From a virus (lineage: Duplodnaviria > Caudoviricetes): a DNA stretch of 62,697 nt. Below are positions 279 through 62,697 of this stretch, in pieces (the stretch's first letter is position 1; the number at the start of each line of letters is the position of its first letter). The notes under the pieces were generated by a model that was not told the DNA's origin, ran no database searches, and saw only the letters and a list, made by a program, of their open reading frames with translations. The DNA is taken from positions 1-62,697 of the IMG/VR virus record IMGVR_UViG_3300034418_005398; one strand, 5' to 3'. A program made the translations under genes and the position numbers.

Positions 279-336
279 GGTACCTCCGGGGGTAAGTTAG
301 TTACCTGGCTAACACCACACGTGTTAGCTGGAGTCA

Positions 337-48107: not shown

Positions 48108-48167
48108 ACGCCCCCACAATACTTGTGCTCCCCCGCACGGTACGCGTACGGGGGGTCAGTATAGAGC

Positions 48168-49100: not shown

Positions 49101-49101
49101 A

Positions 49102-49491: not shown

Positions 49492-49502
49492 ATCACTATC
49501 TC

Positions 49503-51053
49503 CTAATCATTAACACCACGCACCATACTAAGAAAGTCAGTCAAGACTTTCTGTTTATTTTTGAGCCGGTTATATAACTCAAACTCAAAATTAGTAGCAC
49601 CCAGATGGTAAACAACAGTTTTACCTTCTGTATCTAATCGCCGTATTCTGGCGTTAGCCTGTTCGTACATCTCCAACGAGTATATAGGAGCGTACCATAT
49701 AATACTGCTCGCTTTCGTAAGGGTCAGGCCATGAGCCGCCACCTTGGGGTGAGCCAAGAGTATTTGTATGTTGTCTGTGTGCTGAAACTTATAAAAAATA
49801 TCATCACGTTCAGACTTCTTTACATCACCATTAACCATAGCTACATCTAACTTCTTTTGTTGTAGTAGCTTGTACAACCGTTGTTGTACGCCGCGCAACG
49901 GAACAAAGACAATGCACTTGTCTCCGACCTCCGCGATAATGTCCTCTAACATAGCGATACGGCTGGAGTCATCGAACTCCACGTTCTCACCATCAGAGTT
50001 GTAAGCCACACCACAACACACTTGGAGTAGCTTCTGAAAAAGCACCGCCGCGTTAGCCGCCGATATGTCGGCTCCTGCAATGCAGGCTTCTTCCTGTAGC
50101 TCTTTATACGCCTCTGCCTGCACCTTAGTCAAGGCACATTCGCGGGGTACGTAAACTGTATCAGGCAAATCTTTGCACTCGGCTAGGTCGAATCGTATCG
50201 ACGGCTGTAGCACGGCTTTGCATACGGTTAGCGCTTCGGGCCTTGGTATCCACTTAAACTGAGACACCTTTTGCATGGTCAAGTCTTTGAACGCAGTAAA
50301 ACTGCGAGGCAGGGACTTGCTGTTGACAAGTTTAGCCAAAGCCCACGCGTCCACAGGAGATTGCGCGATTGGCGTGCCGGTCAGCAACCATAGCCAAGGC
50401 GACACCTCGTTCACGTAGTTTGCAAACAGCTTGAAACGGCGAGAACTAGGCGTCTTGAGCGCGGTAGCCTCGTCGTACACCACAAGGTCAAAGTCCCTGA
50501 AGTTATCCGGCATCGTCGTAAAGCCATCGTGGTTGATGATAAAGAACTCGACGCCCTTCTTCTCCAACAACTGCTCGCGCTTCTTCCTTGTGCCCGTTAG
50601 TATTTCAAAGCTGCGGTGCGGCAAATGTTGCATGATCTCCTTACCCCACACAGGTTTGAGCGTAGACAATGGAGATATAATAAGCACTTTTTTAATAACA
50701 TTAGTGGTTAGTAAATAGTCTGCCGCCCACAGCGTACTAATAGTCTTGCCCGTGCCCGGCGCGTTGAGACATAAACCACGCCTGTTTGCTACTAAGAAAG
50801 CAGCAGTTTGGCGCTGATGTTCCATCGCAGAGAATCGAGCAGGCCAGTCGTAGTAATTTAGGATAGGCGCAGGCACGTTTTTGATGCCCATGTTCCTGAG
50901 TACATGAGTTTCCTCGACGCCATGATTCAAAGCAATGTACTCGACGTTCTTCAGCTGAAAGACTTTGGCGTGCGGCACTACCTCTAGCAACCCTTCGTTG
51001 CCGGACTTGGGGAGCACGATCTTTTCTCTGTTGGGCACAACTATAGCGGTCAT
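49503..51053 (-). CDS. SNF2-family (SF2) DNA helicase
   Basis: PGTGKT, VVYDEAT, LTGTP, HGLTLT, QANARIRR. Confidence 0.93.
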   Translation of the reverse strand: MTAIVVPNREKIVLPKSGNEGLLEVVPHAKVFQLKNVEYIALNHGVEETHVLRNMGIKNVPAPILNYYDWPARFSAMEHQRQTAAFLVANRRGLCLNAPGTGKTISTLWAADYLLTTNVIKKVLIISPLSTLKPVWGKEIMQHLPHRSFEILTGTRKKREQLLEKKGVEFFIINHDGFTTMPDNFRDFDLVVYDEATALKTPSSRRFKLFANYVNEVSPWLWLLTGTPIAQSPVDAWALAKLVNSKSLPRSFTAFKDLTMQKVSQFKWIPRPEALTVCKAVLQPSIRFDLAECKDLPDTVYVPRECALTKVQAEAYKELQEEACIAGADISAANAAVLFQKLLQVCCGVAYNSDGENVEFDDSSRIAMLEDIIAEVGDKCIVFVPLRGVQQRLYKLLQQKKLDVAMVNGDVKKSERDDIFYKFQHTDNIQILLAHPKVAAHGLTLTKASSIIWYAPIYSLEMYEQANARIRRLDTEGKTVVYHLGATNFEFELYNRLKNKQKVLTDFLSMVRGVND

Positions 51054-51352
51054 ACGTCCGCGAGTCCTTTTATTACAGCCAGCGAAAGGCGTAAAGCGTC
51101 AAGGTTCTTTTCGTTGATAACAAAGTACAGCCCCTGCGCTTCGCGGATGCTGTTGCCTTGTTTTTTCTGCCAAGCCGACTCTTTGTTAGCTCCAAACTTG
51201 GTCTCAACACCGACGAACTTGCCGTTTATACACGCAACAAAGTCAGGTATTCCTTTTACTCCATAACCTGTTTGTACCGGCATATACCACCACGCACCGA
51301 ACTCGGTTAGTATTTTTTTGACCTCGGCTTTCACATCTTTTTCGTTCTTCAC
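51050..51352 (-). CDS. VRR-NUC domain nuclease/resolvase
   Basis: EKDVK...GIPD...GVETK...Q. GTG start at 51352. Confidence 0.85.
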   Translation of the reverse strand: MKNEKDVKAEVKKILTEFGAWWYMPVQTGYGVKGIPDFVACINGKFVGVETKFGANKESAWQKKQGNSIREAQGLYFVINEKNLDALRLSLAVIKGLADV

Positions 51353-51353
51353 G

Positions 51354-52013
51354 CTATCTCCCGTAAGGGCAAATGTCCCGCGCCGCGCACCACCGGCACA
51401 AACCGCTCGGCTTTGCCTCAAACACCCCTAAGTCTATGGTCTCCTGCGCGTAGTCGAACCTTTGCATCAGGTTGCGCCACATCGGATCAAACATAGACCG
51501 CTTGTACACCATATCTGTAACTTGGTCGAACTTGAGCCACACGAAGGCCGTCTTGACCGTCTTGACCTCGGGAAAGTGCAAGAACACCATACAGGCAAAC
51601 AACTGCAACTGCGTAGGATTGTCTCGCACCTTGCCTGTTTTCCAGTCCAAACAATATGCTGTATCTCCATCAACCACTAACACGTCAGCTATACCACGTA
51701 GCCATACGTCTTTTGCCATCCAATCACACGGCTCTAACTCTGGTGTTACAGCCATTTGGTACTCATACAGGTGTGTACCTTTCTTTTCTAGTAGCCTGTC
51801 TATCAGGCTTTTCCACTTTCTTGTCTCGCGAGTTAAATACTTTTCGTCTCGCGACTTTGCATACATTTCTAGCGCCTCGTGCACTCTAGTGCCGTAGGCC
51901 ATCGCCTCTGATTCTACTACTTGTACATTCTTTGTTACGTATAAGTAGTCGAACTGTTGCGGACAATTTTCAAACGTGCTCAACCTGCTGTAAGACATTG
52001 GAAACTTGGACAT
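51354..52013 (-). CDS. PD-(D/E)XK exonuclease (Cas4/RecB-like)
   Basis: SYSRLSTFENCP, GTRVH, GIAD, LDWKTGK, QLQLFA, CRWC...C. Confidence 0.9.
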   Translation of the reverse strand: MSKFPMSYSRLSTFENCPQQFDYLYVTKNVQVVESEAMAYGTRVHEALEMYAKSRDEKYLTRETRKWKSLIDRLLEKKGTHLYEYQMAVTPELEPCDWMAKDVWLRGIADVLVVDGDTAYCLDWKTGKVRDNPTQLQLFACMVFLHFPEVKTVKTAFVWLKFDQVTDMVYKRSMFDPMWRNLMQRFDYAQETIDLGVFEAKPSGLCRWCAARDICPYGR

Positions 52014-52025
52014 ACTCGACCCCAA

Positions 52026-53861
52026 TCATTTAGCGTCTCCGTACGTTCTGCCGACTTCTACCTCACAATCTAGGGGTATTGACCCCCTACACCACGGCGG
52101 AGCTTCGCGGAGACAAACTTGCATCCATTCTTTGCACTCGTCCACGCGTGCATCAGTGACCACACAAACAGCTTCGTCGTGTACACTGAGGGCCACAGGA
52201 AATCTCCTGTTTATGCGCGCAGTCTGCCACATGACAATATGCCGCGCGGCGTGTTGCGATATGTTTTCTACCACTTTTCCACCGTAAATCTTCTGCTTCT
52301 TACCCGCAGACCAATACTGCCAATCACCCGTGGCATCACGATGCAGGTCGTGGTACACAACCCCCACCGAGTTTGGCATTGAGAACCCGTTATGAGTCGT
52401 CAAAAACCAACCGTTTACATCAACTGACTGTAACACATCTCTGCGCTGAATTGCAGGCAAAATCACATCATTGCAGTGCTTCCACAGCGCAACTACCTTG
52501 TCGTGCCGCGAGCGATACAACCAAACAATGCGCTCTGCTTCGGCCTCTGAGATAACTTGCCCCGCCATCACCCGCACCATTTCTTTAAAACGGGCCGCTC
52601 CAGCGCCATATTGGAGAGAAAGCATGGCTACTTTGCCCACCATGCGCTCTTTTTTATCGTCTTTAACGATATTGCGGTTATACATTTCAGATGCGAAGTC
52701 GCAGTACAAGTCTACGCCCGAGCGTATTTTGTCTACCACGTCTGTTTGTCCAGCCAATGACATCACTACTCGTAACTCGATATTACTAGAGTCGCCAACT
52801 ACAACGGAATTACCCGGCGGCGCACCTACGCACTTGCGTATCTCTGCGCCTGTCCCGCGAGCAGGAATGTTCTGCCAATTCATTTTGTTGCCGCCGGACA
52901 GCCGGCCCGTAGTTTTAGCGCCCCAATGGTTTAAGTGTACGGGCAACGGGCCACGCCTTGCCGCTTCCATCAAACGTAGCGCGCGGGTTTCGTTGATCGT
53001 CGATTTGACACCAAGCCGCGCCGCTACAAGAGACTGTACGTCTGGGTTGGAGTGGTCTAAAAGGTCAGTCAGGTCGCGGTCGTTTTTTGCGAAGGCGTAG
53101 GTCTCTTTGCCCGTCCGCGCGGACATTTTCATGGGTGGGATTACGCCTAAGTTGCGTAGTGCTTCTGCAAACTTGGGGTTGGACATTAGCTCGTCGCGAC
53201 CAATTTGCGCACGCTCTAACAGCGCGTCTTTGTCATCAAGCACGCTGTTATGATAGTTGAGCAGGCGGTTGGCATCGCCTATAAGAGTCGGTTCGGTAAA
53301 CATCCGCGTAGTCATGTCGATAAGATATAGCTCAAGAGCAGGTGTTGTCTCTAACAACTTAGAAGCAATGAGGCTACAAAGCGCGACGTCGTTGCAGCAG
53401 TATTCGGCGTAACGAGCGAGTCCTGCTTCAGTAAAGTCTGCCCTACGCAAGCCCATAGCGGTCTGCACCTCGGTGCCTTTCTGACCTAGCCCCATGTGTT
53501 CGGCTACTTTTGCAAGGGAGTGACGCGCTAGCCAAGGGAAGGCCATGCGAGATAAAGGTACGGTGTCCATCCACAGCTTAGGCTTGAGATCAAAAAGCTG
53601 AGTAGTGATGAAGCCGTCGAAGTGCGCGTTGTGTGCGCAGACAGCGGTGGACGGCCAGTCGATGACGCCCTGCAAAAAGTGCTGGGTATCTGTAAAGGAG
53701 CCGCTAAACCAGATAGGTTCTTTGGATAAACTGGGTTTGACGGAGACGCCTACAACCTCAAACTGGCTAGACATACAGTACTCATCTGTTGTCAGTTTGC
53801 TAAGAGAAAAGTCGCGGTCGTAGTACGTCTCGTAATCAATCGTGGCGAAGTCAGCGATCAA
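52026..53861 (-). CDS. polA: DNA polymerase family A with 3'-5' exonuclease
   Basis: ExoI DYET, ExoII HNAHFD, ExoIII YCCND; TTGRLSG; motif A DSSNIELRV; motif B RMVGKVAMLSLQYG; motif C VHDE. Confidence 0.95.
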   Translation of the reverse strand: MIADFATIDYETYYDRDFSLSKLTTDEYCMSSQFEVVGVSVKPSLSKEPIWFSGSFTDTQHFLQGVIDWPSTAVCAHNAHFDGFITTQLFDLKPKLWMDTVPLSRMAFPWLARHSLAKVAEHMGLGQKGTEVQTAMGLRRADFTEAGLARYAEYCCNDVALCSLIASKLLETTPALELYLIDMTTRMFTEPTLIGDANRLLNYHNSVLDDKDALLERAQIGRDELMSNPKFAEALRNLGVIPPMKMSARTGKETYAFAKNDRDLTDLLDHSNPDVQSLVAARLGVKSTINETRALRLMEAARRGPLPVHLNHWGAKTTGRLSGGNKMNWQNIPARGTGAEIRKCVGAPPGNSVVVGDSSNIELRVVMSLAGQTDVVDKIRSGVDLYCDFASEMYNRNIVKDDKKERMVGKVAMLSLQYGAGAARFKEMVRVMAGQVISEAEAERIVWLYRSRHDKVVALWKHCNDVILPAIQRRDVLQSVDVNGWFLTTHNGFSMPNSVGVVYHDLHRDATGDWQYWSAGKKQKIYGGKVVENISQHAARHIVMWQTARINRRFPVALSVHDEAVCVVTDARVDECKEWMQVCLREAPPWCRGSIPLDCEVEVGRTYGDAK

Positions 53862-53864
53862 GCG

Positions 53865-53978
53865 CTAGCCCTCCACGATAGAGTAGATAGAGATAAGCGC
53901 GCATAACAGGAACAAGGCCGCTACGCCTTCGTGCCCCAATATATCGCGGAGTTTTTCGTAAATTTTGTCCCAATTCAT
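53865..53978 (-). CDS. Small membrane protein (37 aa, below the ORF-track cutoff)
   Basis: Read manually: MNWDKIYEKLRDILGHEGVAALFLLCALISIYSIVEG. Fills the gap with an ATGA overlap. Confidence 0.6.
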   Translation of the reverse strand: MNWDKIYEKLRDILGHEGVAALFLLCALISIYSIVEG

Positions 53979-54217
53979 TTGCCTGCCCCTATGAGTTGCG
54001 CCATTTTCATTTCGGCAAACTTCTGCACTGTAAGATCAGACTTAGCCGCCTCTGCCCAGATAGCGTCGATGTCAGCTATGGGCCAGTCGCTGAGATCAGC
54101 CACCTCGCTCATGCAGTCAATAATGTAGGCGCAGTACGCCTCCCCCGCGTTGCCTGCGGTAGCCGACCTAACCAGCCGGTCTAGCCGCAAGGGTATTTCT
54201 TTTTCTTTCTTAATCAC
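53975..54217 (-). CDS. Hypothetical protein
   Basis: AGGAG RBS. Part of the tightly packed minus-strand operon. Confidence 0.7.
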   Translation of the reverse strand: MIKKEKEIPLRLDRLVRSATAGNAGEAYCAYIIDCMSEVADLSDWPIADIDAIWAEAAKSDLTVQKFAEMKMAQLIGAGK

Positions 54218-54228
54218 TGTTATTCTCC

Positions 54229-54429
54229 TTAATACAAGTAAGGGTCAATGCGCTCAACCACTAGCGGTCTGTCGTGCTCCCGCAAGCGGCTTTCGCGCAC
54301 ATAAGTTAAGTTACTCAACACAAAAACTGGCTCTCGGTAATCCTTGGCTATCGCCTCGGCGCAATGGAGCACTGCGACAATATGCTGTTGCTCGTCCCGC
54401 GTTACCTGCCAGTCACCCATAAGGCCCAA
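54229..54429 (-). CDS. Hypothetical protein
   Basis: Overlap-coupled within the operon. Confidence 0.6.
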   Translation of the reverse strand: MGLMGDWQVTRDEQQHIVAVLHCAEAIAKDYREPVFVLSNLTYVRESRLREHDRPLVVERIDPYLY

Positions 54430-54640
54430 CCCCTCGGGGAATACGCTTCGCCCAGTCAGAGTAGTAGCCGTCTAACAGCATTTTGTCCATAAACTCAAGA
54501 TGCTTTTGCAACAAGTACCGCGCGCGCAGTAGCTCAAACGCCATTGCTTTTTGGTCGTCCGATGACAGCGACTTCCAGTCATACTTGTTAGCAATAAAGG
54601 CTTCTAGCCGTTCTTGAGGAACTGGCGCAAAGTCTTTCAT
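54413..54640 (-). CDS. Hypothetical protein
   Basis: GAGGA RBS and ATGA overlap. Confidence 0.7.
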   Translation of the reverse strand: MKDFAPVPQERLEAFIANKYDWKSLSSDDQKAMAFELLRARYLLQKHLEFMDKMLLDGYYSDWAKRIPRGVGPYG

Positions 54641-54837
54641 GCGGCGTCCTCGCCGTATCCACTGTCGCCTTCCTCAAGCGTGATTAACTCCTCAAGCTCT
54701 GCTCGACAACAATCGCTGAACTGGTATTCAAACTTATGAACACCCTTCTCTCCCCAAAACTCGTATGGCTCTGCGTCTATTTCGTAGACAACGCCACACT
54801 CCTCTTTGCACTTACTGCATATCTGGGTCGTGTACAT
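54637..54837 (-). CDS. Small Cys-rich (Zn-finger-like) protein
   Basis: CSKCKEEC...SDCC. GAGGA RBS. Confidence 0.65.
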   Translation of the reverse strand: MYTTQICSKCKEECGVVYEIDAEPYEFWGEKGVHKFEYQFSDCCRAELEELITLEEGDSGYGEDAA

Positions 54838-55261
54838 GATAATCGTCCTCTAAAAATAAGTTTATTTCTGGGATCGGCACTACCAAAAGTTGTGCGATTT
54901 CTGCACCGTGATACACGGTAAACGGTTTTCGTCCGTGGTTATGTAGGACTACGCGCACCTCACCCGTAAAGGTGGGGCTTATCAGCGTGGGCGCATCCAA
55001 AACTGATACCGAATGTTTCTGAGATAGCCCCTTGCGGGACAGGATCATGCCGGAATAGCCCGTAGGGATGACTACCGACAAACCTGTTGTGACTAACTCG
55101 GTCTGCGTAGGAGATAAACGCAAGGGGTGCCCTAAGTCTGCACAAAGGGTCAGCCCTCGCGAAAAGTCTACTACCTCATCAGGTAAAGTTGCGGACGGCG
55201 AAAGCCTGCGCATCCTAAGCTGAACGGGACGTTTCCCTAAAACTGTCCTCGTTTCGGTCAT
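54812..55261 (-). CDS. Trimeric dUTPase homologue, apparently catalytically inactive
   Basis: Fold residues conserved (LVTTGL, IPTGY, GEVRVVLHNHG, IAQL). Motifs 1-4 degenerate and motif 5 absent. Confidence 0.8.
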   Translation of the reverse strand: MTETRTVLGKRPVQLRMRRLSPSATLPDEVVDFSRGLTLCADLGHPLRLSPTQTELVTTGLSVVIPTGYSGMILSRKGLSQKHSVSVLDAPTLISPTFTGEVRVVLHNHGRKPFTVYHGAEIAQLLVVPIPEINLFLEDDYHVHDPDMQ

Positions 55262-55264
55262 AGG

Positions 55265-55537
55265 TTACTCCACGCGCCAGATACGAACGCCCTCGGCGTG
55301 GTTGTCATACTCGCCTTGAGTGCCAGCGCGGACGATGAACCGGCGGTCGCCGTCCAGCTTACGCTTGGCCCACATGCACGCTCCCAACATGCGGTTACGA
55401 ACCCTATCCATAGGCTCGTCGATGTTTTTAGCGACAAAGAAGGAGTCCCCGATCTGCATGTCCGCAAACGGGTACTTGGGGGTGCGCCCTCTGCTTGTCG
55501 CAGGGACGGGTACATTTGACTCTATTTTATACGTCAT
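55265..55537 (-). CDS. Small putative DNA-binding protein
   Basis: KIESNVPVP...KYPFADMQIGDSFFV...GVRIWR, a recurrent phage family pattern. Confidence 0.7.
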   Translation of the reverse strand: MTYKIESNVPVPATSRGRTPKYPFADMQIGDSFFVAKNIDEPMDRVRNRMLGACMWAKRKLDGDRRFIVRAGTQGEYDNHAEGVRIWRVE

Positions 55538-55832
55538 CAGTAAATGCCTCACTAGTTACAAGAACACAGACGGTCTCGCCGCCGTACATCACATCAAGCT
55601 CTACGCACTCGTCCGCTGAATAGCCAGAGGAACGCACTGCGGAGAACAATTCACTCAAAGTCACGCTGAGTGAATTGACTATTATTACACCCCGTTGCGG
55701 GTCTACGTCAATAGCAACGCGATCTTTATTTATAGGCACCGTCACGTCAATGCCCATTTTTGCGAACCCGTGGCACAGCCTAGACTCAATGCGTTTGAGC
55801 CTAGCTGTTACCTGTTTATCAGTGTTTGTCAT
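55527..55832 (-). CDS. Hypothetical protein
   Basis: RLKRIESRL motif. Overlap-coupled. Confidence 0.7.
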   Translation of the reverse strand: MTNTDKQVTARLKRIESRLCHGFAKMGIDVTVPINKDRVAIDVDPQRGVIIVNSLSVTLSELFSAVRSSGYSADECVELDVMYGGETVCVLVTSEAFTDDV

Positions 55833-56073
55833 CGTCCATTACTCCAAAGTACATATAGGACACAGTAAATAGACGGATGGCCTCGCCGTCAGCACTCTGT
55901 AGGGGCGCGGATTCATCGGGCACTTTGTACCCGATTTCACCGATAAACGTGTCGCTGTTGAACCGTAAATAATTCATTGGCAACACTACCCCAAACAAGT
56001 TGTAAGACTCGACCATCCATATATCGCGGAACGCCTCCGACCACGTTTCTCCTGTCAGCGTAGTCGGTAGCAT
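55819..56073 (-). CDS. Hypothetical protein
   Basis: Abuts the previous stop and fills the operon. Confidence 0.6.
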   Translation of the reverse strand: MLPTTLTGETWSEAFRDIWMVESYNLFGVVLPMNYLRFNSDTFIGEIGYKVPDESAPLQSADGEAIRLFTVSYMYFGVMDDDKH

Positions 56074-56937
56074 TTAGTTGAGTCCCGACAAGGTAGCGGC
56101 GGTCTGCAACGCCGCGATTTCGTCAGAGTTGATCGCCTCGTAATTATCTTGCTCGGCGGGTTTGCGAGGGCCACGCGTCACTTTCTCGCGCACCTTACGC
56201 AAGATATGATCGGGGATAACAGGCTCAAACTGCGGGTACTCTTTCAGTAGCCTGTTGACGCTTGGCACGTTGTTAAGCACTTTCATCAGGCCGGACTCAG
56301 CGGTATGGGCTTTGGCGCGTAAGTCGCCTACCTCATACAACGTGGCTAAATACGCGAGTAGGCTGTTCTGATCGGGACACAGATCGCACGCGCGGATGTG
56401 GTAGCAATAATAGCTATTAGGGGTGTCAGGCGGCAAAACGCAATCGTTCTCGGTTATGCCTAGCGTGTGCACCATATCAGCCAGCGTCGCAAGTCTTACA
56501 GGATTTAAAGCCGTGTCGTGCTCCATTTCAGCTACGTTAATAGGCGCGGCAGGCTCGGCTAACGCGTTAGCCTCTTGGTCGCTGTTTGGCGTCCACGAGA
56601 ACCCGGCCATGTTGATAGTAGATGGCTCGTCAACGTCTGACAAGTTAGCTATAGCTTTGCGCACCGCTTCCTCGTCGGGGTCGGGCACTAACACGTTGAT
56701 GCCTACTTGACTGGATGGTTTCTTGCACCAGCTGGTAGGAACAAGATCACGCAAGTGTGCGTGCTCGCCCCAAGGCGCGACTAACATCGCGCTCAGTGCG
56801 GCTTTGTTTTGCTTGAGCAAGCCGAGAGTCGCTTCTTCAGCCTCATTGACGGCTTTCTGGCAAGCGGGTCGGAATTGGTTGCGCAAGCGAACAGTAAGGT
56901 CGTGGCGCAGAGAGTCAGTGATTCGTACAGTAGTCAT
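56074..56937 (-). CDS. Nmad5-like protein
   Basis: N-terminal TVRITDSL and C-terminal VLNNVPSVNRLLKEYPQFEPVIP resemble Nmad5. AGGAG RBS. Confidence 0.55.
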   Translation of the reverse strand: MTTVRITDSLRHDLTVRLRNQFRPACQKAVNEAEEATLGLLKQNKAALSAMLVAPWGEHAHLRDLVPTSWCKKPSSQVGINVLVPDPDEEAVRKAIANLSDVDEPSTINMAGFSWTPNSDQEANALAEPAAPINVAEMEHDTALNPVRLATLADMVHTLGITENDCVLPPDTPNSYYCYHIRACDLCPDQNSLLAYLATLYEVGDLRAKAHTAESGLMKVLNNVPSVNRLLKEYPQFEPVIPDHILRKVREKVTRGPRKPAEQDNYEAINSDEIAALQTAATLSGLN

Positions 56938-56952
56938 AGTCGTTACTCCTAG

Positions 56953-58182
56953 TTAGTTAAATACAACGTCAGTAATGTCACCGAAGGGCACAGTAGCGTG
57001 GCTGTTGCTATGCACCGCCCAGATGACGGGGTACTCGGGAGCGTGTAGCTCGTCGAGGTCGGGTGTGTACAGGTCAGTAAAGTACACAAGTGCGGCGATG
57101 CGCTCGTCAGCAAGCTCATCGTCAATGTGGTCGAACACGGGCTTGACGCGGGTGCCACCGCCGCCACGCGGGTGCAACTCAACGGTCTCGCCGCGCTCAA
57201 ACCGTTCAACATGCTGTACATGCGTGTCGCAGTACACAACGATAACGCCGTCAGGATTGCAGTCCTCGACAATGGCGTTGATCTCTGCGGCAGTCTGTCT
57301 ACACAACTCGTCCGACATAGAGCCGGAAGTGTCGAAGCCGACAACAAGCCAGCCTAAGCCCTCGCTATGCAGGGACGGAAGCATGAGATTGTATGACGCG
57401 TACTTGCGCTCGGGTCGCGCGTAGCTGTAGTCATCGTGCGCTATCGAAGTCATAACGGGTCGGAGCACATCATCCCACTGAACAACGGGGTCAAGCTCGC
57501 CCTCAAGCAGACGGTCGATAAGCGCAGACTGGTCGCCAGCGGCTTTGGCCATACGTGCGGCAGTCAGAATGGTAGCCTTAACGTCTAACTCGTCAGCCGC
57601 ATTGGGTGCGGGAGCCATATCGCCGTGGCCGTCCCAACCGCCGCCGCCGGTCTCGGCGCTAGGCATAGAGCCGCCGGACGGGTCAGTAGAGCCGGAGTCA
57701 CCGTCACCGTCACCGTCACCGTCACCGTCACCGTCACCGTCACCGTCATCTTCATCGCATAGCTTGCGATACACGGACTCGGCATCGTGGGAGTCGTCAA
57801 CCCAGTCGAGCAACACGCCGCCAGCTGGCATAGTGTAGCCCTTTACTCGTAACATGTAATTGATAACAGCGTCACAAGCGATGTTCCACAGCCGAGGGTT
57901 ACGTTCGTCAAGCCGGAACATGTGCATAAACACGGCGTGCAAAGCCTCGTGCAAGCACACGAACATAAGCTCGTCATCGGTAAGCGGCTCACAGAAGCTG
58001 GCACCGAAGTACAGATTCTTGCCGTCAGTTGACGCAGTACCGTCTACACCGTACTTGCGGGTCATTGCTGTATACACGCTAGCGATAAACGGCTCGCGCA
58101 GGGTCATACGTGCGGACAGCATGTCAACGCGCGATTCTAGCGCGTCAAGGTCATAGCTGGTCTGCGGGGGTAGGATCGTCAT
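56953..58182 (-). CDS. Zincin metallopeptidase-vWA fusion (DUF2201-like)
   Basis: TASTDG, LHEALH, WNIACDAVIN; MIDAS DTSGSM, GGGT, FTDL. Confidence 0.9.
   Translation of the reverse strand: MTILPPQTSYDLDALESRVDMLSARMTLREPFIASVYTAMTRKYGVDGTASTDGKNLYFGASFCEPLTDDELMFVCLHEALHAVFMHMFRLDERNPRLWNIACDAVINYMLRVKGYTMPAGGVLLDWVDDSHDAESVYRKLCDEDDGDGDGDGDGDGDGDGDSGSTDPSGGSMPSAETGGGGWDGHGDMAPAPNAADELDVKATILTAARMAKAAGDQSALIDRLLEGELDPVVQWDDVLRPVMTSIAHDDYSYARPERKYASYNLMLPSLHSEGLGWLVVGFDTSGSMSDELCRQTAAEINAIVEDCNPDGVIVVYCDTHVQHVERFERGETVELHPRGGGGTRVKPVFDHIDDELADERIAALVYFTDLYTPDLDELHAPEYPVIWAVHSNSHATVPFGDITDVVFN
57697..57744. repeat. Hexanucleotide microsatellite (GTCACC) x8
   Basis: Encodes the (DG)8 linker between the peptidase and vWA domains. 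Confidence 0.95.
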
Positions 58183-58366
58183 AGACACCTCCAGTTAGTA
58201 AGTTAAGTTGGTCAACAACATCGTCAGCGCCGGCAAGGTCGAGGGAGTCAACAAACGGCACGCCGTCAGTCTCAAACTCCCACAGAGTTTTGGCTAACTC
58301 GTTAGCCCGTTCCTTGCTGGTCGCCCAGATGGATCGCCCACCGCATGTTACGCGGTAGACAATCAT
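58151..58366 (-). CDS. Hypothetical protein
   Basis: ATGA-coupled to the AAA gene and overlaps the vWA gene start. Confidence 0.7.
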   Translation of the reverse strand: MIVYRVTCGGRSIWATSKERANELAKTLWEFETDGVPFVDSLDLAGADDVVDQLNLLTGGVYDDPTPADQL

Positions 58367-59385
58367 CGCTTGAACACCTCTTGGTTGGCAGTGAACCAGT
58401 CGGCGAACACGGGTGCTTGAATCAGCGTGGGGTCACGCTGGTACGCCAGCTTGACGCACAAGGTCTCCAATTCCTTGGGCAGTTTGTCAAGGTAAGCAAT
58501 GGCGTGGTGTATATTTTTCTTGGTGACGCGCGCCGCCAAGCCCATGACAAGGCAGTACCGTATGTCTAACTCGCTAGGCACAGGTACAGACTTGCCTGAT
58601 AGTATGCCGTCAATGTCGGGCATACGCTCAAACACGCGCAGGAACTGCTCAAAGTCAGTGGCGGCTTTGTCACCGATGGTGCCCTTGATAAGCTCGGCAC
58701 GGGTCACAGGTGGAAAGTCGCTGTCTAACAAGTCACTGGTATAGAACCAGCCGCGAGGGGTCGGGAACTGCTTGCCGTAATAGTCCCTGTTGAACTGGTG
58801 CAAGTAGTCGGCGCGTTGCTTGAGAAAGGCCATAACCTCTGGCCGGCGGTTACAGACAGCGAAGTAGTCGAGCGTGTCGTCAATGTGCTCGTTGATCTCG
58901 ATTTCTGTAAACCTGTTGAGCAGTGGCGAGGGGACGGCATTGACTACGCCGCGATCAGACGTGCGGTTACCTGCGGCTATGACCATCCAGCCCTCGGGCA
59001 GTTGGTGCTGGCCAAGCGCACGGTCGAGCGCAATCTGATACGCACTAGCCATCACGCTGTTGGGCGCGGACGTAAGCTCGTCAAGGAACAGGATGCCGCT
59101 TGAGTCCTTAGCAGTTGGCCACCACTCGTTGCGGAGCCAGCGCACGATCTGCTGTTCAAGGTCTGGCGCGGGCAGGCCAGACATATCAGTTGCGTTGAAC
59201 ATGTTAAGCCGAAGGTCGATCACACCCTGCCAGTTGTCAACCGACTTGGCTAACGCGTTAGCCGCTTGGTGCACGCCAGCGGATTTGCCTACGCCGGACT
59301 TGCCGACAAAGAACAGGGATCGCTTGCGCGTGATCGGGTTAGTGTAGAGGGTTTGGATTGTTGAAGACATATCACCAATACGCAT
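58363..59385 (-). CDS. MoxR/dynein-related AAA+ ATPase
   Basis: GKSGVGKS, ILFLDELT, AAGNR, LLNRF, FPTPRGW. AGGAG RBS before the ATG at 59385. Confidence 0.92.
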   Translation of the reverse strand: MRIGDMSSTIQTLYTNPITRKRSLFFVGKSGVGKSAGVHQAANALAKSVDNWQGVIDLRLNMFNATDMSGLPAPDLEQQIVRWLRNEWWPTAKDSSGILFLDELTSAPNSVMASAYQIALDRALGQHQLPEGWMVIAAGNRTSDRGVVNAVPSPLLNRFTEIEINEHIDDTLDYFAVCNRRPEVMAFLKQRADYLHQFNRDYYGKQFPTPRGWFYTSDLLDSDFPPVTRAELIKGTIGDKAATDFEQFLRVFERMPDIDGILSGKSVPVPSELDIRYCLVMGLAARVTKKNIHHAIAYLDKLPKELETLCVKLAYQRDPTLIQAPVFADWFTANQEVFKR

Positions 59386-59463
59386 AGGTATTACTCCTAA
59401 TAAGTTAATTACAAACACAATGAGATGTGTGTAGCAAGGCTACACACGGTTACACAAAGACGG

Positions 59464-60429
59464 CTAAAACATGCCGTCCATTTGAGCTAGTATATCACTA
59501 GCCGCCGTTGCCGCAAGCTCCCGCATTTCCTGCGTAGTTGCACCTTGGGCACGGGTTGGGTCAACGCCACACGCGGCCAGCACTTCCTTGGCGTTGTTGG
59601 CTGTCTGCTCACGGATGGCAGAGTCCTTACGCTTGAGTGCTTCCACAGGCACGTCGAATGTGCGCGAGCAGTGCGCAGCCAGATCGTTCAACTGCGTTAG
59701 CCCTAACACGTTAAGCGCAGGCATACGGTCGGCCACGTCCTTGAGAGACCGCACTAGCGAGTCGTGCACGCGTGAATTGTCGCGACTGGTCTTGTCATAC
59801 ATATTGATGACAGACTCAATCAGCCGTTCCAACGGCTCGGACACAGCGCCGGCCATGATGTGCTTGGTGGTCTGCTCGACCTGCTCAGTCACCTGCTCGC
59901 GTAGCTCTGACTCAATGTCATCGAACAGGCCACCGCCAAGATCACCGATAGGCAGGGTGCGTATCGACATCTTGAACTGGCTAACCACCTCTGACACATC
60001 GGGGTACTGCGTGGCGTCATACAGACCACCTTGGCTCGCTTGTGCATTGGCTAACACGTTAGACCAGTTTTGCGCAAACACGGTCACTGCCTGCTGTCGC
60101 TTTACCTCAAACTCATTAAGAGCAGGAAGCACCTCCATGAGCAGGCCAGTGTTGACAACAAACACGCCGTCAACCAGCGCCATCGAACTGCGTGCGCGTA
60201 GGTAGTTGCGTGCCTCGGCTTCCACCGCGAGGATGGGCGCGATCAGCGGCTTGGGGTAGAGCTTGCGGTTTGTGTCGAGCACAGATGCGTCCGCATTGTT
60301 GGCCAGTGCCGCATCGGTTGACGCTTTGGCGTCTTTCGCGGATAGCTTGGGTTTGTTGAATACCAGACTCACAATTACCGCTCGGTTGCGAATCGACGAA
60401 AGTACAGGTGCTACAGTTGAATCAGTCAT
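59464..60429 (-). CDS. DUF3150-like protein
   Basis: AVIVSL...KD...NRKL...GGLYDATQYP...SQF...P pattern. Adjacent to the AAA/vWA pair. Confidence 0.65.
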   Translation of the reverse strand: MTDSTVAPVLSSIRNRAVIVSLVFNKPKLSAKDAKASTDAALANNADASVLDTNRKLYPKPLIAPILAVEAEARNYLRARSSMALVDGVFVVNTGLLMEVLPALNEFEVKRQQAVTVFAQNWSNVLANAQASQGGLYDATQYPDVSEVVSQFKMSIRTLPIGDLGGGLFDDIESELREQVTEQVEQTTKHIMAGAVSEPLERLIESVINMYDKTSRDNSRVHDSLVRSLKDVADRMPALNVLGLTQLNDLAAHCSRTFDVPVEALKRKDSAIREQTANNAKEVLAACGVDPTRAQGATTQEMRELAATAASDILAQMDGMF

Positions 60430-60811
60430 GGGTAGAGCCTCCCTCAAAGTAGTGGCCGAACACAGCGTTCAGCGTCTCGTGTGCGCTCACGCGCAAAATG
60501 TCGTCATCGGAAATCGGCGAGCCTTTGGCTAACTCAATAGCCAGTTTGCAAGGAATACCGACAGTCTCGTACAGCGGGTGGCACGCAGAGTGATGCCGGC
60601 TAGTGGTTACGCCGTACTTATCCTCGTTCTCGTACCAGACGCCGTTGCGGTAGATAAACAGCGGCCAGTGCTCGCCGTAGCTATACACTACATAGTCGCC
60701 ATGCTCGGTAAACTGCGCATAGCAGGTGTGGTTCGTGTTCACGAACGGTTTGCGGTCGCGCACGTAATATCGCATATCGCGAAGGGTCGCGCGCTGGATT
60801 GGATCAGTCAT
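60422..60811 (-). CDS. Conserved early hypothetical protein
   Basis: YVVYSYGEHWPLF...WYEN...YGVTTSRH. GGAGG RBS. Confidence 0.75.
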   Translation of the reverse strand: MTDPIQRATLRDMRYYVRDRKPFVNTNHTCYAQFTEHGDYVVYSYGEHWPLFIYRNGVWYENEDKYGVTTSRHHSACHPLYETVGIPCKLAIELAKGSPISDDDILRVSAHETLNAVFGHYFEGGSTHD

Positions 60812-61091
60812 TGTCAAGCCCTCCACCTAACCCGCTAGGTACTTGGTTATAAGCGAACGTGCGCGACTCGCCATCGCCACGGGTAATTCGGTATTTCTGC
60901 ACCTTGTGGCCGTGTAGCCCCACAGCGTGTATTGTTCCGCCGCCCCAACCCGCTTTCACGGGGCCGCAGTCAAACGCTTGCGGCCACAGGTTGCGGATCA
61001 ACAGGGCAGTCGTTAGCTTTTCCATTTCGCGGTCGCGCTCTGCGGTAAGCTCGGCGAGCCGGTTGGCTTTGCTTAGTATCGGATCAGTCAT
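60804..61091 (-). CDS. Early hypothetical protein (first gene of the operon)
   Basis: AGGAG RBS, downstream of a strong promoter. Confidence 0.7.
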   Translation of the reverse strand: MTDPILSKANRLAELTAERDREMEKLTTALLIRNLWPQAFDCGPVKAGWGGGTIHAVGLHGHKVQKYRITRGDGESRTFAYNQVPSGLGGGLDND

Positions 61092-61192
61092 CTTGGACAC
61101 TCCTAACAGTTATCAGTTTGGCTAACGCGTTAGCCGGTTAATGAAACGCGGCAGATGCCGCCGTGGTGAGTATATACCTCCCCACAGTTTCC

Positions 61193-61220
61193 AGTATACA
61201 GAGGCTGTATGCTATGTCAA
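61193..61220 (-). promoter_or_regulatory. Strong sigma70-type early promoter
   Basis: TTGACA-N16-TATACT heading the long minus-strand operon. Confidence 0.8.
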
Positions 61221-61264
61221 CCCTGAACCTGTTAGGAGTAAGGATTGGGGGCGCGGATGCGGTT

Positions 61265-61640
61265 ACAACTAGTACAACTAGTGGGGTCGGCGGTAAGTGC
61301 TTGATTTGCTTGGTATTCCCAACTAGTTAGTTAAGTTAACTAAAAGTCGAGGAAAAAATGTGGGGGGTCGAAAAATGAAAAGGCTGTGCGCATAAAAAAA
61401 TTGGGGCGAGAAATAATTTGCTTTAGTTTTAGTTAACTTAACTAACTAGTACAACTACTCTTTTTTATTTGGCTTTCTGCCAACCATCTCCGCGATAGTG
61501 CCTACTAACTTTTTTCCGAAATTCTAGTTGTACTAGTTGTTGGCCTATTTATAACTCGTTCGTTGCAAGAAAATCGCCAGTAGTCGCTACAACTAGTTAC
61601 AGCAACTAGTAGCTACAACTAGTTACAGCAACTACTGGCT
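61265..61640. other. Putative replication origin or structured non-coding block
   Basis: Nested perfect inverted repeats (17 bp and 24 bp), 23-bp direct repeat x2, many CAACTAG(T) units, A/T tracts, IHF consensus site. Confidence 0.55.
61294..61306 (-). promoter_or_regulatory. IHF consensus site
   Basis: AATCAAGCACTTA matches WATCAANNNNTTR. Confidence 0.5.
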
Positions 61641-61834
61641 AACGTGTTAGCCGACTGTCTAACGCATTAGCTCGGCGCGCCTCTCGACCGGCTGATAGTA
61701 GTAGTGATAGTAAAACCGGCAAGCCTCTAGCCACATCGCGCGCGCAGTCGCAAACTGCAAAAAGCTAATGCATTATGCGAAACTCTACCGGCGCGCCTCT
61801 CCACCGTGTGATAGTAGTAGTGATAGTAATTTTG

Positions 61835-61860
61835 AAAAAAAAGGCGCCTTTCGGCGCCTT
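61835..61860 (-). terminator. Rho-independent terminator
   Basis: Minus strand GGCGCC-GAAA-GGCGCC-T8 after ORF 61875-62555. Confidence 0.9.
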
Positions 61861-61874
61861 GGGTTGGGGTTGGT

Positions 61875-62555
61875 TTAGTGAGCGCGGACAGTCTTGACAC
61901 TACCCTTTTTGGTTTGGGTTGCGCCATCGCCTACCGCAATGGTAGCGCCGGCCTCATTCGGCGCTAGGTGGAACCCCAGTTCAGTTAGCACGGCCTCGAA
62001 CAATCGGCGCTCGGTCGCGTGCGCTAGCCAGTATTTGACTGCGGCCTTGATGTCGCCATCCGCCTTTGTCTTGGGCGCGGGAGTCGCGGCACGTGGCGCG
62101 CGGGTTTGCACATCCGGCGCCTTTTTGCCGGCCCACTGCGCCTTGATTTCCTGCGCGGCCTTGCTCAGCATGTTGACCGGAATCGTGTCGAGCGCGACAT
62201 TCGCGGGAGTGACGACCGAATCGGCCTTGCTGGTAGCACGTTTGACAGTGACGGGTAGATCGCCAGCCATAGCCAGAATGAGGAACCGGCCTAGCTTTTC
62301 CCAAGTGTTCTTTTTGAACACCACACCATCCGCGACACAAATCGCCTTCGCGCGTTTCATCAACTGCGGATGCGCGTCAGCCGGCGCAATGGATTGATCG
62401 CGCTCCTCTGCGATAATCCGCGCGGCCTCTACATACTCCACGCGCGCCTTATCATCTGCCGACTCCGCACGGCGCAACGCTTGCGTGACGGGGTTCATAT
62501 CCTTCACTGAGGTTTTCTTGTTTACTGCTTTAGCAATAGCTTTCATATCATTCAC
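61875..62555 (-). CDS. Early hypothetical protein (basic, Ala/Lys-rich)
   Basis: 226-aa ORF with its own promoter and terminator. AAGGTG RBS suggests the ATG at 62546. Confidence 0.8.
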   Translation of the reverse strand: MNDMKAIAKAVNKKTSVKDMNPVTQALRRAESADDKARVEYVEAARIIAEERDQSIAPADAHPQLMKRAKAICVADGVVFKKNTWEKLGRFLILAMAGDLPVTVKRATSKADSVVTPANVALDTIPVNMLSKAAQEIKAQWAGKKAPDVQTRAPRAATPAPKTKADGDIKAAVKYWLAHATERRLFEAVLTELGFHLAPNEAGATIAVGDGATQTKKGSVKTVRAH

Positions 62556-62604
62556 CTTTTAGGTTATGGGTTAGTTATGTGCCTAACTTGTTAGACACAG
62601 TCCG

Positions 62605-62632: not shown

Positions 62633-62697
62633 CAAACGGCGTGATAGTAGTTAAGTGATAGTAAGAAAAAAAAGGGGGGCCGAAGCCCCGTGCGTCA
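62624..62697 (+). repeat. Terminal direct repeat, right copy (74 bp)
   Basis: Identical to 1-74. Confidence 0.95.

What the first reader, a model, noticed from the sequence alone, without database searches (positions are those of the whole stretch)
56557..62596. A 16-bp palindrome placed about every kb through the early region, including inside genes
Seen: GGCTAACGCGTTAGCC at 56557, 59248 and 61120; GGCTAACTCGTTAGCC at 58292; GGCTAACGTGTTAGCC at 61637; GGCTAACACGTTAGAC at 60049; GCCTAACTTGTTAGAC at 62581. Near-copies occur at 61657 and 59701, and a long-loop version at 307-329. With equiprobable bases the 10-bp core is expected about 0.06 times in this genome, yet seven exact cores lie within 6 kb and I saw none by eye in the 45-kb structural arm. 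Four copies sit inside genes (Nmad5-like, small ORF, AAA+, DUF3150-like). The motif has stops in two of three frames, so it forces the peptide (A/S)-N-x-L-A with a TTA codon, which implies DNA-level selection. Other copies lie just downstream of the three early promoters. Inference: this is a binding-site array for a dimeric protein. It could act as stoperator-like roadblocks for early-gene shut-off, as parS-like loading sites around the putative origin, or as sites that protect or pull the first-injected DNA. No classical repressor or ParB is encoded. Candidate binders are 55265-55537, the KilA-N-like protein, 61875-62555, the HhH-bearing ejection protein, or a host protein.
Basis: partly seen in the sequence, partly recalled or inferred. 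Interest (0 to 1): 0.85.

Follow-up and report, generated by a model that had tools for sequence, protein, structure and literature searches.

The report
Lineage-specific palindrome array in phage early arm
A 16-base palindrome recurs about ten times through the early genes of this uncultured 63-kb phage, and related phages carry their own versions at matching places, so a still unidentified phage factor probably reads these sites to control early gene expression.

Summary
GGCTAACNNGTTAGCC occurs 5 times, where shuffles give none. Looser forms bring this to 10-11 sites, all in the minus-strand early arm. Synonymous-codon shuffles give a mean of 0.12 in-gene cores against 4 observed, and 3 of the 4 ANxLA peptides in the proteome are spelled by the motif.

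The main new result is that this is a family trait. 68 of 80 related IMG/VR loci carry at least 3 copies of their own 7+2+7 palindrome: mostly TAATCCC-RY-GGGATTA, also TTCTAAC-, ATTCCC-, ATTTTCG- and GCTCCC- types. The maximum in 240 shuffles was 2. In six whole records the sites lie only in the early/middle arm. They sit mostly between genes, just before the ribosome-binding site, or next to early promoters.

My best reading (about 0.45) is an operator or roadblock array on double-stranded DNA for a co-evolving phage-encoded symmetric dimer. The main rival (about 0.3) is an RNA hairpin read by a phage factor. No ParB, T7-type RNA polymerase or known DNA-binding domain was found, and the binder is unidentified. 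A conserved basic early protein of unknown fold is only a positional candidate. I rate it a new variant of a known kind.

The parts
56557..56572 (-). Exact palindrome GGCTAACGCGTTAGCC inside the 287-aa ORF 56074-56937, read as ANALA. It lies about 40 nt downstream of a CTACTATCA / TTGTCA-17-TACTAT promoter-like site.
57583..57598 (-). Degenerate copy with 3 mismatches, inside the DUF2201 metallopeptidase/VWA gene.
   Evidence: kept in the close relative
58292..58307 (-). Palindrome (sense strand GGCTAACGAGTTAGCC) inside the 71-aa ORF 58151-58366, read as ANELA. It is 104 nt upstream of the VWA gene start.
59248..59263 (-). Exact palindrome inside the MoxR-like AAA+ gene, just after Walker A, read as ANALA.
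60049..60064 (-). Copy with 2 mismatches (sense strand GTCTAACGTGTTAGCC) inside the 327-aa DUF3150-like gene, read as SNVLA.
60527..60542 (-). Degenerate copy with 3 mismatches in the 3' part of the 134-aa ORF, about 80 nt upstream of the DUF3150-like gene start. In relatives a copy sits upstream of this gene.
61120..61135 (-). Exact palindrome in the 5' leader of gene 60804-61100. It lies about 50 nt after the sigma-70-like promoter and 28 nt (to the ATG at 61091) before the likely start codon.
61193..61220 (-). Sigma-70-like promoter TTGACA-16-TATACT (11 of 12 consensus positions).
61637..61672 (-). Tandem pair: an exact-type copy at 61637-61652 and a degenerate copy at 61657-61672. Both lie directly after a TACTATCAC-pair promoter-like module.
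62581..62596 (-). Copy (sense strand GTCTAACAAGTTAGGC) between the promoter-like TTGCAG-17-TAGAGT and the ribosome-binding site of the 226-aa early gene.
   Evidence: the relative has TATAGT at the -10 position
307..329 (-). Long-loop version: 8-bp arms GCTAACAC/GTGTTAGC with 5 nt between them, in the leader of gene 72-278.
61875..62546 (-). Basic early protein (pI 9.8 for the 226-aa ORF from 62555), a member of a conserved early family (alignment A2) of unknown fold.
55527..55832 (-). 101-aa protein of a family found as a single copy in 75 of 81 sources. Function unknown, no fold match.
62642..62650 (-). One of seven distinct CTACTATCA boxes. The others are at 61809, 61693, 384, 801, 56613 and 20565. 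The box is the same across lineages and contains a -10-like TACTAT.

Best explanation
The palindromes are cis-acting recognition sites for a sequence-specific factor that the phage itself encodes. They mark the early/middle transcription unit.

The most likely mechanism is this. A symmetric dimer binds the 16-18 bp duplex at sites just downstream of, or beside, early promoters and at gene junctions. There it represses initiation or blocks elongating host RNA polymerase. This would shut off, or autoregulate, the early genes.

Shown: the sites exist, are under nucleic-acid-level selection, are confined to the early arm, and form a family-wide trait with lineage-specific sequence and conserved placement.

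For: 1. Excess and selection:
   - 5 exact sites, where none of 100 shuffles gave any.
   - 4 in-gene cores against 0.12 in codon-preserving shuffles, and 3 of 4 ANxLA peptides spelled by the motif.

2. Family trait:
   - 68 of 80 related loci have at least 3 copies of a 6+2+6 palindrome: 61 of AATCCC type, 3 ATTCCC, and 1 each of GCTAAC, TCTAAC, ATTTTC and GCTCCC.
   - The maximum in 240 shuffles was 2.

3. Confinement: in 6 whole records, the 6-12 sites per record all lie in one early/middle arm (up to about 17 kb) that holds the AAA+ gene.

4. Two-fold symmetry:
   - The spacing is fixed at 2 bp. Three loci (L088, L092, L126) each showed one copy with another spacing in the 6-mer counts, against 416 exact copies.
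   - The centre is purine-pyrimidine in 320 of 323 unique copies.
   - Lineage changes hit both arms symmetrically.

5. The arm sequence is strict, not merely complementary: 315 exact copies against 54 one-mismatch and 15 two-mismatch copies.

6. Placement at promoters:
   - In the window, copies lie about +17 to +67 after -10-like boxes.
   - In TAATCCC phages a copy lies between the CTACTATCAC box and the -35 of a TGGACA-17-TATAAT promoter. As read from that promoter, this copy is on DNA, not in the RNA.

7. The commonest one-base variant, GGAATTA, puts a C-A mismatch in a sense-strand hairpin. It recurs at several independent intergenic sites.

8. The exact 16-mer is not a general phage motif. 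Of 64 IMG/VR stretches holding it, only the 98%-identical relative has more than one copy.
Against: - No known DNA-binding domain, ParB or repressor was found in any early ORF.
- The two conserved unknown proteins that I modelled match no solved fold.
- Placement also fits an RNA element. In relatives, 149 of 318 copies begin with the stop codon of the upstream gene. For those 149 copies the next start codon is mostly 10-30 nt downstream, so the ribosome-binding site follows directly.
- The window's long-loop copy (307-329) keeps the arms but not the spacing.
- Rhizobium phage RHph_TM3_14A has 34 copies of GTTACC-N5/6-GGTAAC with variable loops, often overlapping the Shine-Dalgarno sequence.
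- There is some strand asymmetry: centre AC 127 against GT 62.
- In the window's degenerate copies, 4 deviations are G-U-compatible on the sense strand against 1 on the other. This is my reading.
- L146 and L147 have an A2-family gene but no palindrome array.
Confidence: 0.45

Rival explanations
1. RNA-level element. The transcribed palindrome folds into a short hairpin (6-bp stem, C-R-Y-G loop) in leaders and between cistrons. A phage-encoded RNA-binding protein or endoribonuclease then reads it. The outcome would be mRNA processing or stabilisation, translational control of the next gene, or N/nut-like antitermination through the early-cassette terminators.
For: - All copies lie in the transcribed early arm, mostly in leaders or intercistronic gaps directly before the ribosome-binding site.
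- The window's long-loop copy sits at the canonical leader position.
- Phage RHph_TM3_14A has variable-loop hairpins whose 3' arm overlaps the Shine-Dalgarno sequence.
- Sense-strand G-U-compatible deviations occur in 4 of the window's degenerate copies (my reading).
- The early cassettes end in strong intrinsic terminators, which an antiterminator would need to read through.
- RNA-library contigs span sites 56557, 58292 and 59248.
Against: - A 2-nt centre cannot be a loop, so the invariant inner C-G pair would have to open.
- The centre obeys a two-fold purine-pyrimidine rule in 320 of 323 copies. A loop has no reason to do this.
- The commonest variant breaks a stem pair on the sense strand.
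- Flanks C(-1) and A(+16) do not pair in 140 of 318 copies.
- Some copies lie upstream of the -35 of the adjacent promoter.
- In the window, 4-6 copies lie deep inside genes, far from any start codon.
Confidence: 0.3
2. parS- or KorB-operator-like loading sites. A clamp-like or spreading DNA-binding protein loads at dispersed palindromes to silence, organise, partition or protect the first-entering DNA.
For: - The sites are contiguous 16-bp palindromes, some inside genes and some at promoters. As recalled, parS/NBS sites and the three classes of RK2 KorB operators look like this.
- The half-sites (TATTCCC-, ATTTTCG-) resemble recalled NBS/parS half-sites.
- The sites are confined to one genome region.
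Against: - ParB_N and HTH_ParB profiles find nothing in six-frame searches of this genome, while the controls did match.
- No partition ATPase was seen in the Pfam scans of the early ORFs.
- The phage shows no sign of a plasmid-prophage lifestyle.
- The sites track gene junctions and ribosome-binding sites, which clamp loading does not require.
Confidence: 0.08
3. Recombination or cassette-boundary sequences. The shared palindromes are mainly homology patches that let early-gene cassettes shuffle, as recalled for T4 PeSL elements. On this view any regulatory role is secondary.
For: - The early ORFs between palindromes are poorly conserved, while the palindromes are kept.
- Ends of blastn homology blocks between 53 related loci fall within 30 bp of a palindrome 374 times out of 4297, against 133 expected.
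- An RNA-library contig skips 280 bases (60800 to 61081). By my reading, the two joined gene starts share sequence.
Against: - Homology blocks end at gene boundaries anyway, and that is where the palindromes sit, so the enrichment is confounded.
- This reading does not explain the strict two-fold symmetry.
- It does not explain the in-gene copies held by codon choice.
- It does not explain conserved in-gene sites across many relatives.
Confidence: 0.07
4. Binding sites for a host protein, such as a global regulator or a nucleoid protein, that the phage exploits.
For: No phage-encoded reader could be identified.
Against: - Related phages carry six different half-sites within one architecture.
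- The window and L081's record share the core but differ in the outer two bases.
- A conserved host factor would not demand this.
Confidence: 0.05
5. N4-type hairpin promoters on the template strand, read by a virion or phage RNA polymerase.
For: - The AAA+ gene's nearest cultured relatives include N4-like phages at about 30% identity.
- A purine follows the motif directly: A 65% and G 23%.
- The commonest variant is a G-T wobble on the template strand.
Against: - No RNA polymerase was found. The 2138-aa virion-type protein has no hit in solved structures and no polymerase motifs, but does carry an HEVMH zincin motif.
- PF00940 found nothing in 5 records. Its control genomes could not match this family, so that result is weak.
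- The purine after the motif is explained by the ribosome-binding site starting there.
Confidence: 0.03

Closest known systems
Stoperators of cluster A mycobacteriophages (L5 gp71-type immunity repressor)
   Same: Many copies of one short motif lie along a transcription unit, mostly in short gaps between genes. They are thought to stop elongating polymerase as well as repress promoters. I saw the abstract and title of PMC9283540 in the listing, and a passage in PMC4319613. The lineage-specific evolution of stoperator sequences is recalled, from PMC6550527, which I saw only as a listing.
   Different: Stoperators are 13-bp, asymmetric and oriented. A monomeric repressor of temperate phages binds them, and they are spread over the whole genome. 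Here the sites are two-fold symmetric and confined to the early arm. The phage shows no integrase or immunity repressor in the ORFs I scanned.
KorB operators (OB) of plasmid RK2, and parS/NBS sites of ParB/Noc proteins (recalled, no paper read)
   Same: These are contiguous palindromes of 13-16 bp dispersed over a replicon: at promoters, near promoters and far from them, some inside genes. Specificity can switch through a few symmetric base changes.
   Different: Their reader is a ParB-family CTPase. No ParB_N or HTH_ParB is present in this genome.
22-bp repeats of phage T1 and Citrobacter phage Stevie
   Same: A lytic phage carries 16-20 copies of one motif, mainly intergenic, and its role is unknown (passage read in PMC4319613).
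   Different: Those repeats are asymmetric and oriented with transcription. Ours are palindromes, and their sequence changes between lineages.
Lambda-type nut sites (boxB hairpin read by N), recalled
   Same: A small inverted repeat lies shortly after early promoters. Its sequence is lineage-specific and co-evolves with a small phage protein. Terminators lie downstream.
   Different: Lambda-type phages have two sites per genome, with 5-nt loops, an accompanying boxA, and no two-fold rule at the centre. Here there are 10-15 sites, including junction and in-gene copies.
T4-type PeSL cassettes (early promoter plus stem-loop), recalled
   Same: Repeated regulatory modules flank small, fast-changing early ORFs.
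   Different: PeSL stem-loops are not sequence-identical palindromes with a fixed centre, and they are not held inside genes by codon choice.

Membership tests
Stoperator / cluster A immunity system | Asymmetric, oriented 13-bp site | tested here: not met
   The sites are two-fold symmetric 16-18 bp palindromes.
Stoperator / cluster A immunity system | Sites spread over the whole genome of a temperate phage | tested here: not met
   The sites lie only in the early/middle arm in the window and in 6 whole relatives. No integrase or repressor domain was found in the ORFs I scanned.
Stoperator / cluster A immunity system | Bound by the phage repressor, and blocks elongation | not testable with these tools
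   This needs binding and transcription assays.
parS/ParB or KorB-OB system | Contiguous 13-16 bp palindrome, dispersed, some copies inside genes | tested here: met
parS/ParB or KorB-OB system | A ParB-family protein (ParB_N CTPase domain plus HTH) encoded by the element | tested here: not met
   PF02195 and PF17762 give 0 matches at E <= 1 in six frames of the whole record. The control genomes matched in 11 and 14 of 14.
N4-type hairpin promoters | A virion or phage single-subunit RNA polymerase is present | tested here: not met
   The 2138-aa protein has no hit in solved structures, no polymerase motifs by regular expression, and a zincin HEVMH motif instead. PF00940 gave no match in 5 records, but that control could not match the family, so absence is not proven.
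N4-type hairpin promoters | 5-7 bp stem with a 3-nt loop, few copies at the genome end (recalled) | tested here: not met
   The centre is 2 nt, and there are 10-15 copies including in-gene copies.
Lambda nut/boxB antitermination | Hairpin with a 5-nt loop after early promoters, plus boxA and an N-like arginine-rich protein (recalled) | tested here: inconclusive
   Position after promoters is met for about 6 copies. Loop size is not met. I did not search for boxA or an N-like protein.
Intrinsic terminators | G+C-rich hairpin followed by a U-tract | tested here: not met
   No T-run follows the motif. Downstream sequence is A-rich. The true terminators in the cassettes are separate hairpins.
   The family is found in 35 loci by HMM, and in the window and L081 by hhalign at 82-90% probability. 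Many loci are cut upstream. L146 and L147 have the gene but no array.

The most novel reading that the evidence does not exclude
A widespread clade of uncultured ~60-kb phages gates its whole early/middle transcription unit with a fast-evolving palindromic address. The clade appears in at least 68 IMG/VR contigs fetched here, and its conserved early protein family has at least 483 members in metagenomes. The address has the frame T-N-N-C-RY-G-N-N-A, and its reader would be a protein of a fold not yet seen in solved structures. This would be a lytic-phage counterpart of stoperators or KorB operators. Natural lineages would then record how a DNA-reading specificity switches by symmetric two-base steps.
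Probability: 0.3. Interest if true: 0.75.

Novelty: new variant of a known kind. Interest (0 to 1): 0.62.

Why it matters
If a phage-encoded reader exists, this clade offers a natural series of matched site and reader pairs: at least six half-site types in one architecture. Such a series is useful for studying how nucleic-acid recognition specificity evolves.

It would also show how lytic phages that lack their own RNA polymerase time their early genes.

The sites are a practical marker as well. They delimit the early arm and the gene boundaries in hundreds of uncultured phage contigs whose early genes have no annotation.

I found no description in print in six full-text searches. Subscription journals and supplements were not searchable.

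Tried and rejected
- blastn of the early arm against 50,697 phage records found no match.
- tblastn of the 327-aa protein against the same records found no match.
- The scan's earlier notes hold no look-alike stretch in other genomes.
The 84%-identical relative P0002 and the long contigs of P0028 and P0029 could therefore not be fetched by that route.
- Virion RNA polymerase idea: rejected for lack of a polymerase.
- ParB idea: rejected.
- Fold searches of the two conserved unknown early proteins gave no match with E <= 0.001. The best E-values were about 1.
- A profile of family A2 against solved structures gave only a weak StbA stretch at E = 1.3, which I do not use.
- Pfam at E <= 10 on eight early ORFs gave one chance-level hit (E 1.3) and nothing else.
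- Wobble test: the window's degenerate copies lean towards sense-strand G-U pairs, and the TAATCCC group leans the other way. At least 14 of that group's 23 GGAATTA contexts are one orthologous in-gene site. I treat the test as inconclusive.
- Homology-block ends near palindromes are enriched 2.8-fold, but this is confounded by gene boundaries.
- My first null mixed in reversed sequences, which keep palindromes. That control was wrong, and (shuffles only) replaces it.
- RNA-library contigs give no strand and no ends. Contigs from two studies both stop at 58262-58265, about 27-30 nt past site 58292, while DNA contigs run on. This is only a weak hint and I did not use it. Parts without cover carry no information.
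- Arms CTAA(C/T) and (G/A)TTAG with 0-12 nt between them occur 5 times outside the early arm. By my arithmetic about 3 are expected, so I treat these as chance.
- Complex prediction was not used, because a homodimer result for an unproven candidate would not have moved my odds much.
- Supplementary files of papers were not consulted.

Full report
**What the window is.** The window is a complete virus record of 62,697 bp with a 74-bp terminal repeat. Genes 1173-45122 run on the plus strand and form the packaging and structural arm. Genes 45243-62555 and 72-1101 run on the minus strand and form the early and replication arm.

Pfam names the following genes:
- a MoxR-like AAA+ ATPase (58363-59418);
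- a DUF2201 metallopeptidase/VWA protein (56953-58188);
- a dUTPase-like protein;
- a family A DNA polymerase;
- a PD-(D/E)XK nuclease;
- an SNF2 helicase;
- a DUF927 primase.

The small early ORFs have no family. No phage record matches the early arm at the DNA level. By large terminase, the nearest cultured phages are Pseudomonas phage Rollin (41%) and Rhizobium phage RHph_TM3_14A (37%).

**The observation.** GGCTAACNNGTTAGCC occurs at 56557, 58292, 59248, 61120 and 61637, and none of 100 shuffles had any copy. The core CTAACNNGTTAG adds 60051 and 62583, plus one outlier at 32528: 8 matches against a mean of 0.14. Three degenerate copies lie at 57583, 60527 and 61657. A long-loop copy lies at 307-329. 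Read on the sense (minus) strand, an A follows the motif in 9 of the 10 early-arm copies.

**Selection on the in-gene copies.** The in-gene copies are read as (A/S)NxLA. With this phage's codon usage, an ANxLA peptide would be spelled by the motif with probability 0.006. In fact 3 of the 4 ANxLA peptides in the proteome are spelled that way, and all four lie in the early arm. In 2000 synonymous-codon shuffles the mean was 0.12 cores and the maximum 2, against 4 observed. Selection therefore acts on the nucleic acid.

A relative with 96.7% nucleotide identity (IMGVR_UViG_3300028829_003355) keeps all ten sites. It has 2 changes in 160 motif bases against roughly 40 in 1200 flanking bases. That difference is in the expected direction but is not significant on its own.

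**Where the window's copies sit.** Several copies follow promoter-like elements. The positions below are my arithmetic from coordinates:
- 61120 lies about 50 nt after a TTGACA-16-TATACT promoter and 28 nt (to the ATG at 61091) before the likely start codon.
- 62581, the pair 61657/61637, 307-329 and 56557 lie about +17 to +70 after CTACTATCA boxes, which contain a -10-like TACTAT.
- The other copies (57583, 58292, 59248, 60049, 60527) lie inside genes with no recognisable promoter upstream.

**The array is a family trait.** The exact 16-mer is rare in IMG/VR. Of 64 stretches that hold it, only the near-identical relative has more than one copy.

A profile of the AAA+ protein fetched 80 related loci with 35-98% identity. 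In 68 of these 80, one 6+2+6 palindrome occurs at least 3 times. The types are AATCCC in 61 loci, ATTCCC in 3, and GCTAAC, TCTAAC, ATTTTC and GCTCCC in 1 each. Seven short loci have 2 copies, one has 1 copy, and four distant loci have none. In 240 shuffles the maximum was 2, reached once.

The full forms are TAATCCC-RY-GGGATTA, TTCTAAC-NN-GTTAGAA, (T)ATTCCC-RY-GGGAAT(A), ATTTTCG/CGAAAAT and GCTCCC-RY-GGGAGC. In five whole TAATCCC-type records and in L081's record, all 6-12 sites lie in one early/middle arm (up to about 17 kb) that holds the AAA+ gene.

More distant cultured relatives differ. RHph_TM3_14A has 34 copies of GTTACC-N5/6-GGTAAC spread over the whole genome, often overlapping the Shine-Dalgarno sequence. 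Rollin has AAGGTAG-N7-CTACCTT four or five times at one place.

**Anatomy in the relatives.**
- Among 323 unique TAATCCC copies the consensus is C-TAATCCC-RY-GGGATTA-A.
- The centre is AC in 127, AT in 112, GT in 62, GC in 19, and other in 3.
- Of 318 copies with enough flank, 149 start with the TAA stop codon of an upstream ORF of at least 60 codons. A further 135 are otherwise intergenic or follow short ORFs, 8 end at the TAR stop, and 26 lie inside long ORFs.
- For those 149 copies the next start codon lies mostly 10-30 nt after the motif. The ribosome-binding site often begins at the first base after the motif, which explains the conserved A there.
- The flanks C(-1) and A(+16) do not pair in 140 of 318 copies.
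- One class of copies lies between a CTACTATCAC box and the -35 of a TGGACA-17-TATAAT promoter, ahead of a basic early gene of about 210 aa.
- Some in-gene sites are conserved across many relatives. One is read as LNPMGF near the start of a 156-aa basic protein, and another as DFNPMEL.

**DNA or RNA?** Evidence for a symmetric reader on duplex DNA:
- the spacing is fixed at 2 bp, with only about 3 exceptions;
- the centre follows a purine-pyrimidine rule in 320 of 323 copies;
- the arm sequence is strictly identical rather than merely complementary;
- lineage changes are symmetric;
- some copies lie upstream of a promoter's -35;
- a recurrent variant breaks a sense-strand stem pair.

Evidence for an RNA hairpin:
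- copies are placed in leaders and directly before ribosome-binding sites;
- the window has a long-loop copy;
- RHph_TM3_14A has variable loops;
- there is a 2:1 AC:GT strand bias at the centre;
- deviations in the window's weak copies are G-U-compatible on the sense strand (my reading).

I put the duplex reading at about 0.45 and the RNA reading at about 0.3. What I hold with high confidence (about 0.8) is the general claim that these are recognition sites of a co-evolving phage factor that acts on the early unit.

**Who reads them?**
- No ParB_N, HTH_ParB or T7-type polymerase profile matches the genome.
- The 2138-aa protein has a zincin motif and no polymerase motifs.
- Across the relatives, the conserved proteins of the arm are the DUF3150-like protein, the AAA+ ATPase, the VWA protein, the polymerase, the nucleases and the helicase.
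- A roughly 95-aa family is present once in 75 of 81 sources.
- A basic family of about 210 aa (alignment A2) is found in 35 loci.
- The window's 226-aa first early protein aligns with A2 at 82-90% hhalign probability, and so does an ORF of L081.
- A2 has at least 483 metagenomic members. None of the 120 listed has a Pfam domain or a name.
- AlphaFold models of A2 (pLDDT 78) and of the 95-aa family (pLDDT 81) match no solved fold.
- A2 is flanked by palindromes in every lineage I looked at. However, L146 and L147 have the gene without an array. A2 is a positional candidate and no more.

**Comparison with known systems.** In function the array most resembles three things: stoperators, the dispersed palindromic operators of KorB or parS sites, and the unexplained intergenic repeats of T1-like lytic phages (passage in PMC4319613; abstract of PMC9283540 seen in the listing; the KorB and parS comparison is recalled). 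It fails the defining features of each family. It is symmetric and confined to one arm, unlike stoperators. It has no ParB, unlike parS and KorB operators. It has no U-tract, unlike terminators. It has no polymerase, unlike N4 promoters.

Six full-text searches found no description of such arrays in this phage group. Subscription journals and supplements were not covered.

**Verdict.** I rate it a new variant of a known kind.

Noticed in passing
window 62642-62650, 61809-61817, 61693-61701, 384-392, 801-809, 56613-56621, 20565-20573 (all minus strand); related loci: The box CTACTATCA, often as a tandem pair followed by G+C-rich sequence, is the same across lineages that differ in their palindrome. 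It is almost always on the sense strand, with 3-6 copies clustered around the A2-family early gene. The window has 8 matches against 0.33 expected. It looks like the -10 part of the early promoters, or a site for a second, conserved factor.
   Followed up: partly
L072+L073 (Rhizobium phage RHph_TM3_14A, MN988472.1), whole genome: This phage has 34 copies of GTTACC-N5/6-GGTAAC in both arms. About half lie at gene ends, and many have the start codon 1-4 nt after the 3' arm, so the Shine-Dalgarno sequence lies in the loop and 3' arm. This looks like a hairpin that sequesters the Shine-Dalgarno sequence, or a translational-coupling hairpin.
   Followed up: partly
L070+L071 (Pseudomonas phage Rollin, OR577172.1) 3-500 and 61266: AAGGTAG-N7-CTACCTT occurs four or five times in one 500-bp stretch across the record start. 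No dispersed array was seen.
   Followed up: no
window 38445-44861 (+): This 2138-aa protein has an HEVMH zincin-like motif near residue 981 and a glycine/alanine-rich N-terminus. It has no polymerase motifs. Rollin and RHph_TM3_14A have counterparts of 2184 and 2307 aa. It is probably an ejected internal virion protein.
   Followed up: partly
window 48168-49172 (-): This 334-aa protein has a proline-rich tail and an acidic C-terminal end (LSELEDALDSLFD). It sits between the helicase and the primase. The tail is like those of single-stranded-DNA-binding proteins, as I recall them.
   Followed up: no
window 60800-61081: One contig from an RNA library (run X19) skips 280 bases and joins the starts of two neighbouring genes. 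Both genes begin MTDP, and the junction has 11 shared letters. A related strain seems to lack most of gene 60804-61100.
   Followed up: no
window 57687-57760: A tandem GTCACC repeat lies in the VWA gene and is read on the sense strand as a run of Gly-Asp. Contigs of several runs break here.
   Followed up: no
window 59427-59450 and 740-790: Other, unrelated hairpins occupy gene gaps where relatives would have the family palindrome. TGTGTAGC-AAGG-CTACACA lies between the DUF3150-like and AAA+ genes. GGGTGG...CCACCC lies after the 801-809 box.
   Followed up: no
window 60422-60826 (-) and the L137:963-1727 family: A family with the motif SY.T.VA...ELW...S.TT.RH is present in 29 related loci. The window's 134-aa ORF carries a similar motif by eye. 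Atlas features point weakly (score 0.88) to DUF8033.
   Followed up: partly
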